30,149 nucleotides of DNA from a bacterium. Lineage in GTDB: Bacteria > Patescibacteriota > Saccharimonadia > Saccharimonadales > SZUA-47. The first letter of the stretch is position 1. Each line of letters starts with the position of its first letter. The translations under genes were made by a program, and so were the position numbers. This document shows, one piece after another, positions 17,577 through 23,291 of this stretch. Where the stretch lies: assembly GCA_043759925.1 (NCBI GenBank), contig JAYUPU010000044.1, positions 1 to 30,149 of the forward strand. The letters run 5' to 3'. The notes beneath the pieces are model-generated. The model saw nothing but the letters and a program-made list of their open reading frames with translations, did not search any database and was not told the DNA's origin.

Positions 17577-18599
17577 ATGGGATACACAAACGAACAGATT
17601 CAAAACGTGTCAGATACGCTTATGCCAAAAGCACAGCAGGGAGACAATGCCGTACTGCGTAGCGCCGAGCTAAAATCGTTGTTTGATCAACTTAAAACCT
17701 TACCTGCAGAACAAAAGTCAGATTTTGGTCAACAGGTAAATCAACTACGCGTAGCCTTGCAACAGGCGTTAGATTCAAAAGCAGCACCCAAAGACGAGCG
17801 TGCAGCCATAGATGTGACAGCGCCGTGGGACGTAAACTTAAATGCCAGCCAGCGCCCGGCACTATTTAGCGCTGATAAGGGTACTGCACACCCGATTATG
17901 ACCGAGATTGACAATATATTAGATATTTATTACCGCATGGGTTTCACCGCTATAGAATCCCGCCAAATCGACGATGATTACCATATGTTTGGATCGTTGA
18001 ACTTCCCGGACGGCCACCCAGCCCGCGACGATTACGATACGTTTATGACAGACGAAGGTTACATTGCACCTGCGCACACTAGTACTATGCAAAACCGAGT
18101 TTTAAAACAGTATAGTGAAAACCTTGCTAAAGGCGAGCCAATCGCTGTTGTCATACCTGGGCGCGTTTTTAGAAACGAAGATATAGATGTAACCCACGAG
18201 CATACTTTTTATCAGCTTGAAGGAGTTTACGTTGGTAAAGGTATAAATGTAGGTAACTTAGTTGCTGTTCTAAAAACATTTATGAGCGAATATTTTGGGC
18301 AAGAACTAAAAGCTAAAATTCAGCCATTTTATTTTCCGTTTACTGAACCAAGTTTTGAATTTGCGATAGAACGCCCAGAGGTTTTGCGCAAAGGCAATAC
18401 CGAAGCCGACATGTGGCTAGAACTTTTAGGCTGCGGAATGATTCACCCAAATGTACTTAAGGCTGCCGGCATAGACAGCAATATATACACAGGTTTTGCC
18501 TGGGGCGGCGGCATTGAAAGGTTAGTATTAATGAAGTACGGCATCGAAGATATAAGGCATTTTGAAGCAGGAAAATTAGAATTTTTGAGGCAATTTTAA
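17577..18599 (+). CDS. pheS: phenylalanine--tRNA ligase alpha subunit
   Basis: HPI, FGSLNFPDGHPARD, HTS, PGRVFRNE, HTFYQLEG, FPFTEPSFE, LGCGMIHP, GFAWG.GIERL. Confidence 0.97.
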   Translation: MGYTNEQIQNVSDTLMPKAQQGDNAVLRSAELKSLFDQLKTLPAEQKSDFGQQVNQLRVALQQALDSKAAPKDERAAIDVTAPWDVNLNASQRPALFSADKGTAHPIMTEIDNILDIYYRMGFTAIESRQIDDDYHMFGSLNFPDGHPARDDYDTFMTDEGYIAPAHTSTMQNRVLKQYSENLAKGEPIAVVIPGRVFRNEDIDVTHEHTFYQLEGVYVGKGINVGNLVAVLKTFMSEYFGQELKAKIQPFYFPFTEPSFEFAIERPEVLRKGNTEADMWLELLGCGMIHPNVLKAAGIDSNIYTGFAWGGGIERLVLMKYGIEDIRHFEAGKLEFLRQF

Positions 18600-21517
18600 T
18601 GAAAGTATCACTAAACTGGGCACAAAGTGTTAGCAATGTTGACCTAAAATCTATCCCTAAAGACGAGCTATTACAAAAAATAGGTGCACAGCTATGTGCA
18701 ATTGAAGAAGTGATTGAATGGGGTCCACGCTACAACGGCATAGTAGTTGTAAAAGTTATAAGCTGCGACCCACATCCTAATGCCGACAAATTACATATAT
18801 GCCGAATTGATGACGGCCGTGTGGTTGAGGGCATGGAGCGGGATGACGACGGTTATGTTCAGGTTGTATGCGGTGCTCCAAACGTGCATGCTGGTATGTT
18901 GGCCGTTTGGTTGCCGCCTAAAACCACCGTGCCTTCCAGTTTAGATAAAGATCCGCTTGTATTGGGTGCCCGTGAATTACGCGGAGTTGTAAGTAACGGT
19001 ATGCTAGCCAGTCCTGCAGAACTGGGAATTAGTGATGATGCAGGTGGTATTTTAGAAGTAATTGCTGCAGATGTCGGCGAAGAACTGGCCAAGCCTGGCA
19101 CGCCTTTTAAGCAGCTTTATGGCATGGACGATTTGGTTATTGACTGCGAAAATAAGATGTTTACGCACCGCCCAGATTGTTTTGGTATTTTAGGTATCGC
19201 CCGTGAGCTAGCAGGTATAACAGGCCAAAAGTTTAAAAGCCCAGATTGGTATTTGCAAGACCCCGTTTTCAAGAACAGCTCTGATTTGCCACTAAACATA
19301 AAAGTATCGTCAGATCTGGTTCAGCGCTTTATGGCTGTAGCAATGGACAATATGCGTATAGAGCCAAGCCCAATGCATATACAGACTGCTCTTACTAGGG
19401 TAGGTATCCGCCCAATTAATAACGTAGTAGATATAACCAATTGGCTAATGCATCTTACCGGGCAACCGCTGCATGCATATGATTACGACAAACTTAAAGC
19501 GCTAAGTGGTGACACGCCTACTTTAGAAGCACGCCTAGCCGTAAAAGATGAATCAGTGAAAATACTTAGCGGCAAACTGGTAGCGTTGCATGACAAAACC
19601 ATCGTGATTGCATCCGACAAACAGCCAGTTGCTATTGCCGGTGTTATGGGTGGTTTAGATACTGAAGTTGATGCAAATACAAAATCGATTGTTATTGAAG
19701 TTGCTAGTTTTGATATGTACAGCGTGCGCCGTGCAAGTATGCGTTACGGTATTTTTACAGATGCTGTAACACGTTTCAACAAGGGCCAAAGCCCACTGCA
19801 AAATGACCGCGTGATGGCTAAAGCAATACAAATGATGCATGATTTAGCTGGTGCAACCCAGGCAAGTAATGTATTTGATATTAAATCCAAAGATGTAGGG
19901 CAAATGCCCTTAGTAGAAGCCAAAATCGATTTTATCAATACTAGGCTTGGCAGCCAGCTTACTACCGATCAGGCTATTGCCCTAATGGCGAATGTAGAAT
20001 GCGGCCTTGTTGTTGGCCGGGCCCAAGAAACACGCAGTTACTTGCAGGGTGTTGGTAATATAGACGAAAAAATTGAACGCATTGGTGTAAAAATAGTCGA
20101 AAAATCAAGTGATGGGCACTACAAACTTCTAATACCAGAAGGAACAGAACAGGATTATGAAAAGCTGGTAGCCTGGGAGATTAAACCAGGTTTCTGGTGC
20201 GAATATATTGGTGCAAAAAACGCATTTTTATTTAAAGATAGGGACACAAAAGTAACTCGTTACGATGTAAACAACGATACCGAACATGAAATAGTAGAAA
20301 TGTGCAGAGCCTTTAGTAACGATTATTTTACAAGCCTTGATTCACTACTAATGCTAAACAGTTGGTACAAGCCACTGTTGCCACTTAAAAAATCAGATCA
20401 CAACGTAGAACAAATAGATGATACTACCATAGCTATAACTCCCCCTTTTTGGCGCCGCGATCTTGAACACCCCGAAGATTTAGTAGAAGAAATTGGGCGC
20501 TTATATGGCTTTGATAAGTTGCCAATTAACTTACCAACCCGCTCTGCAAAACCAACTCCTAAAAATGCACATATGCAACTATTAGCGCAAATGCGAACTG
20601 CACTTAAAGCTGCTGGTGCCAATGAACTTCTAACCTACAGTTTTGTACACGAACGTTTGCTATACGCAGTTGGACAAAACAAAGATTTGGCATTCCACGT
20701 TCGTAATGCCCTTAGCCCTGATTTGCAGTATTACCGCATGAGCCTTACGCCTAGTTTACTAGAAAAGGTACATCCAAATATTAAAGCTGGTTTTGATAGC
20801 TTTGCTATGTATGAATTTGGCAGAGCACACAATAAAGTACACCCGGTTGAGACGGGCGAAGTACCAGAAGAATATAACATGCTAGCTTTTGTTATTGCCG
20901 GCGCCAAACAACCAAAGCAAACAAGCGCTTACTATACAGCCAAAACATACCTAGATTACTTAGGTAAATCATTAGGCCTACAGTTTGTTTACACGCCAGT
21001 TACAGATATGCCAGATTTTCCGGTTACAAAACCGTTTGACCAAAACCGTAGTGCCTTTGTTACTATTGCTAATACTAAAAAAATGCTAGGCATTATGGGT
21101 GAATACCGCTACGAGGTACTGCAGTCATTAAAATTGCCACTTTTTAGCGCTGGTTTCGAGATTAGTACAAAAGACATATTAGAAGCCGCAGCAGAAAGCA
21201 AAAAAAAGTACGTTGCTGTAAATAAGTTCCCGTCTACTAACCAAGACATTACGCTGCAGGTACCAATGCGCGTAACGCATAGTATGCTGACTGAAACTAT
21301 AAATAAGGTTGTAGCGCTTTTGCAGCAAGAACATGGTTATATGGTTAAAGTTACACCGGGTGACATATTTGTACCCCAAGATTCCGATAAGCAGCGCGTA
21401 AGCTACACAGTTACTCTGTCGCACCCATCTAAAACGCTTACTACAGACGAAGTTAATAAAGCCCTAGATTTAATATCGCGACACGCTGTAACCGACCACT
21501 CAGCCGAGAGGATATAG
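18599..21517 (+). CDS. pheT: phenylalanine--tRNA ligase beta subunit with a ~133-aa insertion in the B5 domain
   Basis: HPNADKL, VVCGAPN, SNGML, THRPDCFG, INNVVDITN, PFWRRD..PEDLVEEIGR and FDX-ACB C-terminus. TAATG overlap with pheS. Confidence 0.96.
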   Translation: MKVSLNWAQSVSNVDLKSIPKDELLQKIGAQLCAIEEVIEWGPRYNGIVVVKVISCDPHPNADKLHICRIDDGRVVEGMERDDDGYVQVVCGAPNVHAGMLAVWLPPKTTVPSSLDKDPLVLGARELRGVVSNGMLASPAELGISDDAGGILEVIAADVGEELAKPGTPFKQLYGMDDLVIDCENKMFTHRPDCFGILGIARELAGITGQKFKSPDWYLQDPVFKNSSDLPLNIKVSSDLVQRFMAVAMDNMRIEPSPMHIQTALTRVGIRPINNVVDITNWLMHLTGQPLHAYDYDKLKALSGDTPTLEARLAVKDESVKILSGKLVALHDKTIVIASDKQPVAIAGVMGGLDTEVDANTKSIVIEVASFDMYSVRRASMRYGIFTDAVTRFNKGQSPLQNDRVMAKAIQMMHDLAGATQASNVFDIKSKDVGQMPLVEAKIDFINTRLGSQLTTDQAIALMANVECGLVVGRAQETRSYLQGVGNIDEKIERIGVKIVEKSSDGHYKLLIPEGTEQDYEKLVAWEIKPGFWCEYIGAKNAFLFKDRDTKVTRYDVNNDTEHEIVEMCRAFSNDYFTSLDSLLMLNSWYKPLLPLKKSDHNVEQIDDTTIAITPPFWRRDLEHPEDLVEEIGRLYGFDKLPINLPTRSAKPTPKNAHMQLLAQMRTALKAAGANELLTYSFVHERLLYAVGQNKDLAFHVRNALSPDLQYYRMSLTPSLLEKVHPNIKAGFDSFAMYEFGRAHNKVHPVETGEVPEEYNMLAFVIAGAKQPKQTSAYYTAKTYLDYLGKSLGLQFVYTPVTDMPDFPVTKPFDQNRSAFVTIANTKKMLGIMGEYRYEVLQSLKLPLFSAGFEISTKDILEAAAESKKKYVAVNKFPSTNQDITLQVPMRVTHSMLTETINKVVALLQQEHGYMVKVTPGDIFVPQDSDKQRVSYTVTLSHPSKTLTTDEVNKALDLISRHAVTDHSAERI

Positions 21518-21527
21518 TATTACGCGC

Positions 21528-23291
21528 GTGCTAAAACATACAATGCAGCTAGTTGTTGCCGTATTAGTAGTAGGTTTTTTAAGATTAGGGGTTGTGTATG
21601 CCGGCGTTAACGATTTTGTTATTAACAACTTCGACGCCAAGTATACGCTAAGTAATGTTGATATGCAGGGTAGCCTTACAGTAACCGAGACTATAGATAT
21701 TACATTCAGCGATAACAACCATGGTATTTTTAGGGCAATCCCAAACAGCTATAAAGATAACTCGCTTGATATTCGTAATATTACTGTTAGTAGCCAAACA
21801 GGGGCGCCACCGCAATTTACACAGAGCACATCAAACGACAACATAGTACTTAAAATTGGCGACCCAAACCGTATGGTCACTGGCAAGCAAAACTACACTA
21901 TCAGCTACACGCTTAGCAATGTAATAGCTTTTTATGATAATTATGACGAGTTTTACTGGGATATAAATGGTACCGAATGGTTGCAGCAGGCAGAAAAAGT
22001 AAGCATGACACTTACATATCCAGAAGGCGCAAAAGTGTCGTCTACAAATATCCCAGTATGTTTTACAGGTGCATACGGCGGTACCGAAAAATATTGCTCA
22101 ATTAGTTTAGACAGCCCCGGCCTTGTTACTGCCAAAACAACAGCACGCTTAAGCGCAGGCCAAACCATGTCGGTAGTTGTAGGGTTTGAAAAAGGTTATT
22201 TTACACCAGTATCCGCCAAAGAAAAGTTGGCCAACCTAAGTTTAATACTTGCTGAAACATTCGGAATACCACTAGTTCTTGGAACGTTTGCATTTAGGCG
22301 TTGGCGTACACACGGCCGCGACCCTAAGGGCGGGGGTATCATAGTTGCGCAGTACGACTCCCCCAAAGATTTGTTGGCTGCAGAGGTTGGAGCAATAGTT
22401 GATTTTAAAGTAGACCAAAAAGATATTACAGCTACAATTGTAGACCTAGCTATAAAGGGATACATAACTATAATAGAAAAAACCGTAGACAGAAAAATTT
22501 TTAAAGATACAACAAACTACAGTTTTGAGCTTAAAAAGCTAGATACAGGCCAACTACAACAATACGAAAAAACCTTGCTAGAAGGCCTATTTAAAGATAC
22601 TAATTTAGCTATTGGCAGCATTGTAGAACTAACAAGTTTGAAAAGCGATTATTACACAACTATAGATTCGGCAAAAGAAACTTTAAAACATAGGCTAATA
22701 GCAGATGGTTATTTTAAGGGCGACCCAGCAAAGGCTGGCTTGATATTGTGGATTATTGTAGGTATATCGTTTGCTTTGCTAATAATTCTTGCTGCAACGT
22801 TAGGCGTAGGCATTGTGCTTGGGCTGATCGTATCGTTGCCTATTGTAGCTGCCTTTGCATTTGCTATGCCTGCCCGCACACTTGCTGGCGTGCAAGCTAA
22901 AGAACATGCCCTAGGACTAAAACTTTATTTGCAGGTCGTAGAAAAAGACCGCATCGTAGCAATGCAAAGCCCTAACGCACCTTTAGCTGCTAATGCCAAT
23001 CAACCTGTGCGCACAGTAGAATTGTTCGAAAAATTATTGCCTTATGCTATTGTGTTCGGCGTAGAAAAGCAGTGGGCAGATGAGTTCAAAGACATTTATA
23101 AGCAACCCCCGGGTTGGTACGGCGGCAACCTAAATACGTTCAGCACAATTTACTTAGCAAGCGTAATCGGCGGGGCCTTAAGCACAGGCATGGCTACGGC
23201 ATTCGCCGCGCCCTCAAGTTCTGGCAGTAGCGGCTTTGGCGGCGGCTTTAGTGGCGGCGGCGGAGGCGGCGGAGGGGGCGGCGGCTGGTAA
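21528..23291 (+). CDS. DUF2207 (YciQ-like) membrane protein
   Basis: HGIFRAIP, EFYWDING, ATIVDLAIKG, LLPYAIVFGVEKQW and the GGGFSGGGGGGGGGGGW tail. Confidence 0.92.
   Translation: MLKHTMQLVVAVLVVGFLRLGVVYAGVNDFVINNFDAKYTLSNVDMQGSLTVTETIDITFSDNNHGIFRAIPNSYKDNSLDIRNITVSSQTGAPPQFTQSTSNDNIVLKIGDPNRMVTGKQNYTISYTLSNVIAFYDNYDEFYWDINGTEWLQQAEKVSMTLTYPEGAKVSSTNIPVCFTGAYGGTEKYCSISLDSPGLVTAKTTARLSAGQTMSVVVGFEKGYFTPVSAKEKLANLSLILAETFGIPLVLGTFAFRRWRTHGRDPKGGGIIVAQYDSPKDLLAAEVGAIVDFKVDQKDITATIVDLAIKGYITIIEKTVDRKIFKDTTNYSFELKKLDTGQLQQYEKTLLEGLFKDTNLAIGSIVELTSLKSDYYTTIDSAKETLKHRLIADGYFKGDPAKAGLILWIIVGISFALLIILAATLGVGIVLGLIVSLPIVAAFAFAMPARTLAGVQAKEHALGLKLYLQVVEKDRIVAMQSPNAPLAANANQPVRTVELFEKLLPYAIVFGVEKQWADEFKDIYKQPPGWYGGNLNTFSTIYLASVIGGALSTGMATAFAAPSSSGSSGFGGGFSGGGGGGGGGGGW

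What the first reader, a model, noticed from the sequence alone, without database searches (positions are those of the whole stretch)
20003..20401. In-frame ~133-aa foreign domain inside the B5 domain of PheT
Seen: between INTRLG...MANVEC (to residue 468) and NVEQIDDTTIAITPPFWRRD (from residue 602) lies GLVVGRAQET...KPGFWCEYIG...LKKSDH, where PheT normally has only a short beta-hairpin. Joining the flanks gives NVEC-NVEQIDDTTIAITPPFWRRD, a normal-looking B5. The insert is bracketed by near-identical 9-mers AATGTAGAA (19991-19999) and AACGTAGAA (20402-20410). The core (SYL.G...IVEK...LLIPE...PGFW.EYIG...F.FKD) looks like a self-contained alpha/beta domain that I recall as small stand-alone CPR hypotheticals; this is unverified. 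Established: B5 contributes Mg-binding acidic residues at the alpha/beta interface, and these (RRD...EDLVEE) are kept. Inference: a whole gene was captured into an essential synthetase and tolerated, possibly adding a new function.
Basis: partly seen in the sequence, partly recalled or inferred. Interest (0 to 1): 0.7.

Follow-up and report, generated by a model that had tools for sequence, protein, structure and literature searches.

The report
Orphan domain nested inside PheT B5
The beta subunit of phenylalanyl-tRNA synthetase in this ultra-small Saccharibacteria-type bacterium carries a complete, strongly conserved extra protein domain of unknown function in a surface hairpin. The same undescribed domain also occurs as a small free-standing protein and nested in other tRNA enzymes.

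Summary
PheT (window 18599-21517, 972 aa) has about 132 extra residues inside its B5 domain. No solved PheT has them, and neither do the 53 other PheT genes sampled from the same order. The insert lies at the tip of the B5 beta-hairpin. It consists of a rigid 115-120-aa alpha/beta module (residues 477-598) between two hypervariable, flexible linkers.

It is not an assembly artefact and not an intein, and the flanking 9-mers are chance. It was gained once, in a clade of two genera, and is under strong purifying selection (dN/dS 0.01-0.03). It is as conserved as the best-conserved parts of PheT.

The module belongs to a family with no Pfam model and no solved-fold match. The family occurs as stand-alone 113-140-aa proteins. 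It is also nested mainly in the LeuRS editing domain, and in MetRS, a class II synthetase, another PheT site and RluA. It is found fused to NUDIX, DMP19-like, DUF5680, NYN, GNAT and HTH domains.

Function is unknown. My best guess is a tethered, non-catalytic binding module. Earlier notes of this scan saw the same module in leuS, and other cassettes in this hairpin, on other DNA. I found no paper describing it.

The parts
17577..18599 (+). pheS (PheRS alpha subunit, 340 aa). Its last base is the first base of pheT.
   Evidence: ORF list. Identified from its sequence and its position directly upstream of pheT. Not scanned separately.
18599..21517 (+). pheT (PheRS beta subunit, 972 aa), the host gene
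   Evidence: TIGR00472 at 499.9 bits, over the cut-off. Pfam B3_4, B5, CLM, tRNA_bind and FDX-ACB. Solved PheT chains match at E 6e-69 and weaker.
19907..20014 (+). N-terminal part of B5 (residues 437-472): one strand, two helices and the first hairpin strand (NVEC-GLVV)
   Evidence: Alignment with insert-free PheT. AF2 of residues 425-650 places a strand at 439-442 and helices at 443-450 and 456-464, with pLDDT 85-90.
20015..20026 (+). N-terminal linker (residues 473-476, GRAQ), hypervariable and flexible
   Evidence: Mean pairwise identity 0.17 over residues 469-476 among 17 insert-bearing PheT. pLDDT below 50 at residues 471-475.
20027..20392 (+). The inserted module (residues 477-598), with motifs RSYLxG, PGFW(N/C)EY, FLFK and NxWY, followed by a clade-specific PLLPLKK tail
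   Evidence: The family profile matches window 20027-20377 at E 6.8e-40. AF2 pLDDT 95.8, pTM 0.88, topology b-a-b-b-a-b-b-b-a-a-a. Mean pairwise identity 0.68. dN/dS 0.013 and 0.033 in the two close pairs.
20393..20422 (+). C-terminal linker (residues 599-608, SDHNVEQIDD), hypervariable and flexible
   Evidence: Mean pairwise identity 0.22. pLDDT below 50 at residues 600-604. The sequence differs in every relative.
20423..20518 (+). C-terminal part of B5 (residues 609-640): second hairpin strand TIAITPPFWRRD and the helix EDLVEEIGRLYGF
   Evidence: Pfam B5 matches residues 596-638 against profile positions 25-67 of 67. Conserved in all PheT, with or without the insert.

Best explanation
This is a genuine, translated domain insertion. 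A complete 115-120-aa alpha/beta module was inserted once, in the common ancestor of two Saccharibacteria-type genera, at the tip of the beta-hairpin of PheT's B5 domain. It has been kept under strong purifying selection ever since. The module belongs to an undescribed family, which I label by its motifs SYLMG...GFWNEY...FIFK...NxFY.

The module folds on its own. It hangs from B5 on two flexible, fast-evolving linkers, so it is displayed on the surface of the (alpha-beta)2 enzyme and does not rebuild B5. The same module circulates in ultra-small bacteria and archaea (CPR/DPANN) and some Bacillota. It occurs as a free small protein, as a cassette nested in surface loops of tRNA-handling enzymes (above all the LeuRS CP1 editing domain), and as a fusion partner of NUDIX and other small accessory domains.

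Shown: the anatomy, the single origin, selection, family membership, and the absence of a Pfam model or solved-fold match.

Inferred, at about 45%: the module is a non-catalytic binding or regulatory domain, for a small ligand or a protein partner, that the synthetase carries as a tethered accessory. I do not think it is an RNA-binding arm or a mere passenger. The confidence given for this explanation (0.85) refers to the shown part, not to this inferred function.
For: Anatomy:
- B5 is split, with about 132 extra residues at the hairpin tip.
- AF2 gives a rigid module (pLDDT 95.8). In the B5+module model the two linkers have pLDDT below 50 and the B5 elements are kept.

The insert is real:
- About 22 PheT of roughly 970 aa from NCBI, ENA, JGI and Logan assemblies share it.
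- Logan contigs from 4 runs bridge both junctions with no differences and no insert-free form.

Single, recent gain:
- The module is present in genus g1 (4 of 4 genomes beside the window's own) and g17 (2/2). It was not found in the 24 other genomes of the family or in 30 other families of the order.
- Those genomes have a PheT of 834-887 aa whose two halves abut.
- On a PheT tree built without the insert columns, the six insert-bearing genes form one clade (SH-aLRT 100, one change).

Selection:
- dN/dS is 0.013 and 0.033 in the two close pairs, at dS 0.25-0.29.
- Mean pairwise identity is 0.68 for the module, against 0.17 and 0.22 for the linkers, 0.54 for B6-7 and 0.46 for B8.
- The family-wide conserved residues S480, E535, K546, C569, N587 and Y590 are kept in 16-17 of the 17 insert-bearing PheT.

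Family:
- An exhaustive phmmer search finds 59 cluster representatives.
- The hosts, by Pfam, are LeuRS, a second PheT site, MetRS, a class II aaRS and RluA, plus fusions to NUDIX, DMP19-like, DUF5680, NYN, GNAT and HTH.
- In 400 sampled genomes of the phylum only 6 carry the module: 4 in LeuRS, 1 free-standing, 1 pseudogene.

For the binding-module inference:
- The family is acidic: median pI 4.9, and 43 of 50 members are below 6. This argues against RNA binding.
- There is no recognisable catalytic motif, and no Pfam, PHROG or NCBIfam hit.
- The only fold resemblance is of the first 67 residues to ferredoxin-like beta-alpha-beta-beta-alpha-beta domains (Cas2, ACT, CutA, EF-G), at Z about 5.
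Against: - The function is not demonstrated. No ligand, partner or activity is known for any member.
- The structural resemblance to ACT-like domains is at noise level (Z below 6).
- Conserved polar residues (S, N/E, K, C, N, Y) could equally be an active site.
- The most conserved polar residue of the family, N534 (46 of 50), is Cys in the window's own subclade and varies (C/N/T/A) among insert-bearing PheT. This hints at a change or partial loss of the ancestral function in this host.
- The contexts of two free-standing genes show no common theme. One lies between a histidine phosphatase and a nucleoside hydrolase, the other beside a cobalamin operon.
- Strong conservation could partly reflect the need to keep a nested domain foldable inside an essential protein.
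Confidence: 0.85

Rival explanations
1. Passenger domain. The module landed in a permissive surface hairpin. It is kept only because imprecise loss would destroy an essential gene and a misfolded insert would poison PheRS. It adds no function to the enzyme.
For: - Distribution is patchy and rare: 6 of 400 phylum genomes.
- Decaying copies exist elsewhere: a pseudogene in G302 and a partial module in one LeuRS.
- The hosts and insertion sites are many and unrelated.
- N534, the family's best-conserved polar residue, is not conserved in the PheT clade.
- Only one copy is present per genome.
Against: - The module is as conserved as the best-conserved parts of PheT, and more so than B6-7 and B8 (0.68 against 0.54 and 0.46). 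The adjacent linkers evolve freely.
- dN/dS of 0.013-0.033 is lower than in the flanking host parts of the same pairs.
- Six of the seven family-wide conserved polar residues are retained.
- No insert-free revertant was seen in the clade.
Confidence: 0.25
2. Small accessory enzyme. The module would be an undescribed hydrolase tethered to synthetases, for example acting on a nucleotide or a mis-acylated or damaged substrate. It would be analogous to the NUDIX, serine-hydrolase and NlpC/P60 cassettes found nested in CPR synthetases.
For: - The conserved polar residues are S480, N534/E535, K546, C569, N587 and Y590.
- The module is repeatedly paired with NUDIX in two-domain proteins (P0125, P0156, P0168, P0170) and inside LeuRS and a class II aaRS.
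- One free-standing gene lies between a histidine phosphatase and a nucleoside hydrolase.
- Earlier notes of this scan describe enzyme cassettes at the same kinds of sites.
Against: - No similarity to any catalytic family by sequence or by fold.
- N534 is replaced in the window's own protein.
- I could not test whether the conserved residues cluster in space, because the tools do not return model coordinates.
Confidence: 0.15
3. Auxiliary tRNA-binding arm, like the Trbp111/EMAPII-type domains appended to MetRS and PheT, which would raise tRNA affinity.
For: - Most multi-domain hosts act on tRNA or rRNA: LeuRS, PheT, MetRS, a class II aaRS and RluA.
- In the MetRS fragment P0132 the module follows the anticodon-binding domain, near the C-terminus.
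Against: - The family is acidic: median pI 4.9, net charge about -6, and 43 of 50 members have pI below 6.
- No similarity to OB-fold tRNA-binding domains or to the host's own ferredoxin-fold anticodon-binding domain (hhalign probability 0.2%).
- Many partners are not RNA enzymes: NUDIX, GNAT, DMP19-like and HTH.
Confidence: 0.08
4. Intein or another self-removing element, or an assembly chimera. The segment would be absent from the mature protein or from the real genome.
For: This superficially recalls intein ends, and the size fits a mini-intein.
Against: - Cys468 belongs to the host's NVEC motif, which is also present in insert-free PheT.
- His-Asn is not conserved, even in the 97%-identical relative.
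- The residue after Asn602 is Val, not Cys, Ser or Thr.
- No Hint or intein Pfam match at E up to 10.
- Homologues exist as free proteins and as terminal fusions, where splicing makes no sense.
- Contigs from four runs and about 22 independent assemblies carry the insert.
Confidence: 0.02

Closest known systems
Canonical bacterial PheRS beta subunit (PheT; TIGR00472; solved for T. thermophilus 1b70/2iy5, E. coli 3pco, S. haemolyticus 2rhs)
   Same: All canonical domains are present in the usual order: tRNA_bind, B3_4, B5, CLM and FDX-ACB. The B5 motifs PPFWRxD and EDLVEE are conserved.
   Different: About 132 extra residues sit at the tip of the B5 hairpin. Solved PheT chains and the 53 sampled relatives have only a 3-4-residue turn there.
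The same module nested in the CP1 editing domain of LeuRS in CPR/DPANN organisms. Examples are P0025, P0123 and P0126, and the LeuRS clusters in the ESM Atlas.
   Same: The domain family is the same: 42% identity over 119 aa, E 2e-22. The motifs and length match, and the module is again nested in a surface loop of an essential synthetase.
   Different: The host protein, synthetase class and site differ: class I LeuRS CP1 against the class II PheRS beta B5 hairpin. The LeuRS copies often sit beside NUDIX, DUF559 or serine-hydrolase inserts, whereas this PheT carries only the module. I saw no REP-type hairpins in the linkers here, unlike what that note reports.
Other domain cassettes nested in CPR synthetases, known only from earlier notes of this scan: NlpC/P60 in the PheT B5 hairpin; NUDIX, serine hydrolase and ITPase in LeuRS CP1.
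   Same: The principle is the same: a complete autonomous domain nested in a surface loop of an essential aaRS. For NlpC/P60 the host domain is also the same.
   Different: - This module is not NlpC/P60. It has no Pfam match, no Cys-His-His triad, and its fold searches return no papain-like proteins.
- It has no recognisable enzymatic signature.
- In the order sampled here the hairpin is otherwise empty. No NlpC/P60 family is listed for the Saccharibacteria PheT.
Ferredoxin-like beta-alpha-beta-beta-alpha-beta small domains (ACT, CutA, Cas2, EF-G domain, acylphosphatase)
   Same: The first 67 or so residues of the model superpose on such domains at Z 4.2-5.7, rmsd 2.5-4 A. The ESM Atlas gives TM 0.41-0.45 to ACT-type acetolactate synthase small subunits.
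   Different: The scores are at the level expected for unrelated common arrangements. The second half of the module (three strands and three helices) is not covered. There is no sequence similarity, and membership is not established.

Membership tests
Bacterial PheT (TIGR00472 pheT_bact) | Whole-protein score above the curated cut-off | tested here: met
   499.9 bits against a cut-off of 402.65, matched in two stretches.
Bacterial PheT (TIGR00472 pheT_bact) | Domain set tRNA_bind, B3_4, B5, CLM (B6-7) and FDX-ACB (B8), in that order | tested here: met
   All five Pfam domains are over their cut-offs. B5 is matched only in its C-terminal 43 positions because of the insert.
SYLMG-GFWNEY module family (undescribed; defined here by alignment A1) | Significant sequence match over the whole module of about 114 positions | tested here: met
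   phmmer finds 59 cluster representatives at E of 1e-3 or better, 14 of them at 1e-10 or better. The profile matches window 20027-20377 at E 6.8e-40.
SYLMG-GFWNEY module family (undescribed; defined here by alignment A1) | Conserved motif residues S, G, W, N, E, F, F, K, C, N and Y | tested here: met
   All are present in the window's protein except N534, which is Cys.
Intein (Hint superfamily) | The N-terminal Cys/Ser belongs to the element, and the element ends in a conserved His-Asn followed by Cys/Ser/Thr | tested here: not met
   Cys468 is part of the host's NVEC motif, which insert-free PheT also have. His-Asn is not conserved among relatives, and the next residue is Val.
Intein (Hint superfamily) | Hint-domain sequence signature | tested here: not met
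   No Pfam family at E up to 10 for residues 455-615. None among the 50 members either.
NlpC/P60 (PF00877), the cassette reported by earlier scan notes in the PheT B5 hairpin | Pfam match and a conserved Cys-His-His/Asp catalytic triad | tested here: not met
   No Pfam match. No conserved His: members have 0-5 His, with none in a conserved column.
ACT-like / ferredoxin-like ligand-binding domains | Beta-alpha-beta-beta-alpha-beta fold superposable at a significant Z-score | tested here: inconclusive
   The best Z is 5.7, over 79 residues at rmsd 3.4 A, against Cas2. ACT-type hits have TM 0.41. The tool's own notes place these values in the noise range.
Transposable or insertion element with target-site duplication | Direct repeats at the exact boundaries, conserved among carriers, or terminal inverted repeats | tested here: not met
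   The 9-mer pair is not enriched (8 found, 9.9 expected) and not conserved in relatives. There are no notable inverted repeats at the boundaries.
Trbp111/EMAPII-type tRNA-binding domain | OB fold, basic surface and a tRNA_bind Pfam match | tested here: not met
   No tRNA_bind match in the insert. The model is an alpha/beta sandwich, not an OB barrel. The family is acidic.

The most novel reading that the evidence does not exclude
The module is one piece of a CPR/DPANN-wide pool of exchangeable accessory domains that are plugged into surface loops of aminoacyl-tRNA synthetases and RNA-modifying enzymes. Within that pool it would be a new fold with a real biochemical role at the synthetase. One possibility is that it senses or captures a small metabolite or nucleotide. 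Another is that it docks a partner such as a NUDIX hydrolase. Either would couple tRNA charging to metabolite clean-up or to defence in organisms with minimal genomes.
Probability: 0.3. Interest if true: 0.75.

Novelty: new variant of a known kind. Interest (0 to 1): 0.62.

Why it matters
Aminoacyl-tRNA synthetases are among the most conserved proteins known. New domains in them have repeatedly marked new functions, such as editing, tRNA capture, and complex formation or signalling in eukaryotes.

Here an orphan domain has been nested in a class II synthetase subunit and kept under selection as strong as that on the enzyme's core. The domain has no Pfam model and no recognisable solved fold. 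The same domain has independently entered LeuRS, MetRS, another class II synthetase and a pseudouridine synthase in ultra-small bacteria and archaea.

This gives two things:
- A defined, testable domain family, with a high-confidence model and clear motifs, for structural and biochemical work.
- A natural experiment on how minimal-genome symbionts add functions to essential enzymes.

It also marks the B5 hairpin of PheT as a permissive site for domain insertion, which is useful for protein engineering.

Tried and rejected
- Intein reading: rejected.
- Target-site duplication or mobile-DNA reading of the 9-mers: rejected.
- Foreign base composition: the GC difference is too small to use.
- Pfam, NCBIfam and PHROGs on the insert and on 50 family members: no family. 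There were only scattered single hits, and a weak PhetRS_B1 hit in 2 of 50 members at E 0.017, which I treat as noise.
- Fold searches with the module model:
  - Foldseek against PDB: nothing below E 0.08.
  - VIA-align against 48,161 chains: best Z 5.7, generic ferredoxin-like.
  - AFDB clusters: only uncharacterised family members.
  - AFDB Swiss-Prot: nothing below E 0.06.
  - BFVD viral: one uncharacterised hit at E 1e-3 with TM 0.47 and rmsd 11 A, not convincing.
- ESM Atlas feature search: no usable hit.
- Foldseek with the two-domain B5+module model: uninformative, probably because the flexible linkers leave the relative domain position undefined.
- Duplicate of the host's own ferredoxin-fold B8 domain: rejected (hhalign probability 0.2%).
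- Gene neighbourhood of two free-standing homologues: no common theme and no synthetase nearby.
- Own genome: LeuRS (838 aa) has an uninterrupted editing domain, the five NUDIX genes are free-standing, and there is no second copy of the module.
- Expression: no RNA holder is listed among the public runs, so nothing can be said about transcription.
- Literature: four full-text searches found no paper on this module or on inserts in PheT B5 of CPR bacteria.
- One words query to the findings index failed on a format limit.
Full report
**1. What is there**

The window carries pheS (17577-18599) directly followed by a 972-aa pheT (18599-21517). The protein passes the curated PheT model TIGR00472 at 499.9 bits against a cut-off of 402.65. 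It has the usual Pfam domains tRNA_bind, B3_4, B5, CLM and FDX-ACB. B5 is matched only from profile position 25 onward, at residues 596-638. Every solved bacterial PheT aligns in two blocks, about 1-470 and about 609-958.

**2. Exact anatomy**

I aligned 17 insert-bearing PheT with 34 insert-free Saccharibacteria PheT.
- The insert-free proteins read NVEC-xVxx-(3-4-residue turn)-LxVTPPFWRTD, which is a beta-hairpin.
- The window's protein reads NVEC-GLVV-GRAQ-[ETRSYL...PLLPLKK]-SDHNVEQIDD-TT-IAITPPFWRRD.

AF2 on residues 425-650 (62-row alignment, mean pLDDT 85) keeps the B5 strand and helices and the C-terminal strand and helix. It models residues 478-593 as a separate rigid domain with pLDDT above 90, and leaves two short linkers below pLDDT 50 (residues 471-475 and 600-604).

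Among the 17 insert-bearing proteins, mean pairwise identity is as follows:

| Region | Mean pairwise identity |
|---|---|
| N-terminal linker (469-476) | 0.17 |
| C-terminal linker (599-608) | 0.22 |
| Module (477-598) | 0.68 |
| B1-B3/4 | 0.70 |
| C-terminal half of B5 | 0.71 |
| B6-7 | 0.54 |
| B8 | 0.46 |

**3. Artefact, intein and mobile DNA are excluded**

- Assembly. About 22 PheT of roughly 970 aa from NCBI, ENA, JGI and Logan assemblies share the insert at 58-98% identity. Logan contigs from four sediment-metagenome runs of one study bridge both junctions with no differences, and no contig joins across the insert. Two of those samples may be the source of this DNA.
- Intein. Cys468 belongs to the host motif NVEC, which insert-free PheT also have. 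His601-Asn602 is not conserved: the 97%-identical relative reads HIVEQT. The next residue is Val. No Hint-type Pfam match exists.
- The 9-mers AATGTAGAA and AACGTAGAA. The pattern with up to one mismatch occurs 8 times in the window against 9.9 expected, and the second copy is not conserved. No inverted repeats mark the boundaries.

**4. Evolutionary history**

In 60 relatives of the same order, the insert was found only in genus g1 (4/4) and genus g17 (2/2). It was not found in the 24 other genomes of the family or in 30 other families.

All but one of those other genomes, which was 85% complete, have a PheT match. Where the gene is complete, the frame is 800-887 aa and its two halves abut at the hairpin. 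Two of these insert-free genomes, G011 and G023, are unpublished. The conclusion does not depend on them.

On a PheT tree built without the insert columns, the six insert-bearing genes form one clade (SH-aLRT 100). A single change explains the distribution.

Nei-Gojobori estimates for the two close pairs give dN/dS 0.013 (dS 0.25, with no non-synonymous change in the core) and 0.033 for the insert. These are lower than in the C-terminal host part of both pairs, and lower than in the N-terminal part of one of them. In distant pairs synonymous sites are saturated, and the insert keeps 51-69% amino-acid identity, like the rest of PheT. The insert is therefore translated and selected.

**5. What the module is**

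An exhaustive phmmer search of 1.84 billion cluster representatives with the 133-aa insert found 59 proteins at E of 1e-3 or better. A local profile shows one domain of about 114 positions in all of them. An alignment of 50 copies (A1) shows the motifs SYLMG, GFWNEY, FIFK and NxFY, with W533 and F543 invariant.

Pfam scans of the hosts give the following:
- 13 LeuRS among the 59 cluster representatives, or 14 with P0025. The module sits inside or beside the CP1 editing domain, most often around profile position 145-150, sometimes together with NUDIX, DUF559 or serine-hydrolase inserts.
- A second PheT with the module ahead of B3_4.
- A MetRS fragment with the module after the anticodon-binding domain.
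- A class II synthetase with NUDIX.
- Two RluA-type pseudouridine synthases.
- Two-domain proteins with NUDIX (4), DMP19-like (3), DUF5680 (2), NYN, GNAT, XRE-type HTH, and possibly a P-loop kinase.
- Roughly 20 free-standing proteins of 113-140 aa.

In 400 evenly sampled genomes of the phylum, only 6 carry the module: 4 in LeuRS (one of them partial), 1 free-standing and 1 pseudogene with four stops. The ESM Atlas adds LeuRS clusters labelled Nanobdellota, and free-standing clusters labelled Nanobdellota, Gottesmanbacteria and Bacillota.

The window's own genome has only the PheT copy. Its LeuRS editing domain is uninterrupted and its five NUDIX genes are free-standing.

**6. Fold**

AF2 with alignment A1 gives pLDDT 95.8 and pTM 0.88, with topology b-a-b-b-a-b-b-b-a-a-a.
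- Foldseek against the PDB finds nothing below E 0.08.
- An exhaustive VIA-align pass over 48,161 chains peaks at Z 5.7. It covers only the ferredoxin-like first half, with hits to Cas2, CutA, EF-G and ACT-type domains.
- AFDB clusters return only two uncharacterised family members, at TM 0.82-0.90.
- The Swiss-Prot and viral libraries give nothing convincing.
- No Pfam, NCBIfam or PHROG model matches.
- The module is unrelated to PheT's own ferredoxin-fold B8 domain.

By these tests it is an undescribed domain family.

**7. How it probably works**

What is shown: an autonomous domain is displayed on flexible tethers at the wing tip of B5 and is conserved like the enzyme's core. What follows is inference.

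- The family is acidic: median pI 4.9, and 43 of 50 members are below pI 6. This argues against a generic RNA-binding arm.
- There is no catalytic signature. There is, however, a small set of conserved polar residues (S480, N534, E535, K546, C569, N587, Y590) that could line a pocket.
- The partners are mostly small-molecule or nucleotide enzymes and small regulators.

My preferred reading, at about 45%, is a non-catalytic binding or regulatory module, for a ligand or a partner protein, carried by the synthetase. The rivals are a selected-for-foldability passenger (25%), an unrecognised small enzyme (15%) and a tRNA-binding arm (8%). N534 is Cys in the window's subclade and varies across the PheT clade, while the other six residues are kept. 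The ancestral site may therefore be modified in this host.

**8. Relation to what is known**

Domain additions to synthetases are a well-known kind of event. This particular module and this site are not described in the papers I could search.

Earlier AI notes of this scan, on other genomes, report four related things:
- The same module in a Saccharimonadales leuS, as an 'undescribed protein domain' (e1-2095657).
- NlpC/P60 domains nested in the PheT B5 hairpin (for example e1-1553173).
- Swappable NUDIX and serine-hydrolase cassettes in LeuRS (for example e1-1022723).
- A gene-insertion hot spot between pheS and pheT in Saccharibacteria (e1-2183616).

I checked what I could. The module is indeed in LeuRS, and NUDIX, DUF559 and serine-hydrolase co-inserts are seen. 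The module here is not NlpC/P60. In the order sampled here the hairpin is otherwise empty. I saw no REP-type hairpins in the linkers.

**9. Verdict**

This is a real, single-origin, selected insertion of an orphan domain into PheT B5. It is a new host and site for a promiscuous, undescribed module of ultra-small prokaryotes. It is a new variant of a known kind (synthetase domain acquisition). Its function is unknown, but it is well defined for experiment.

Noticed in passing
L008-L037 (PheT genes of relatives); window 18599-21517: On the PheT tree built without the insert columns, the insert-bearing clade (family f1) does not group with most other f1 PheT genes. It sits instead in a 15-row group made up mostly of PheT from other families of the order, together with one f1 genome. 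This could be a rate artefact or a transfer of pheT.
   Followed up: no
L043 (G302:C2:23495-23701): A copy of the module in another genome of the phylum is a pseudogene. It has four in-frame stops (1 TGA, 2 TAG, 1 TAA) and only profile positions 20-89 remain.
   Followed up: no
L044 (G308:C55, LeuRS of 950 aa): This LeuRS holds only a partial, weak match to the module (residues 389-451, E 8e-9). It looks like a decaying or truncated nested copy.
   Followed up: partly
window 20198-20200 (codon of residue 534): The family's best-conserved polar residue is Asn in GFWNEY (46 of 50 members). It is Cys in the window's subclade, and C/N/T/A across the insert-bearing PheT, while the neighbouring Trp and Glu are invariant.
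   Followed up: partly
P0140, P0151 (proteins): A DUF559 (Vsr-like endonuclease fold) domain is nested in a PheT (residues 201-307) and in a LeuRS (residues 269-374), each of which also carries the module. An endonuclease-type domain inside synthetases hints at a homing-like spread of such cassettes.
   Followed up: no
P0180 (protein): A LeuRS-like protein of 886 aa carries the module at residues 427-544 and a PF06821 serine-hydrolase domain at 644-825. This matches the hydrolase cassettes reported in earlier notes of this scan.
   Followed up: no
window 21528-23291 (+): The gene directly after pheT encodes a 587-aa protein with predicted membrane segments and a poly-Gly tail ending in GGGGGGGGGGGW. 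Earlier notes on related genomes describe a DUF2207 protein in this position. I did not scan it.
   Followed up: no
window 18596-18602: pheS and pheT share one base (pheS ends and pheT starts at 18599), so nothing lies between them here. In related Saccharibacteria, earlier notes report that this junction collects small enzyme genes.
   Followed up: no
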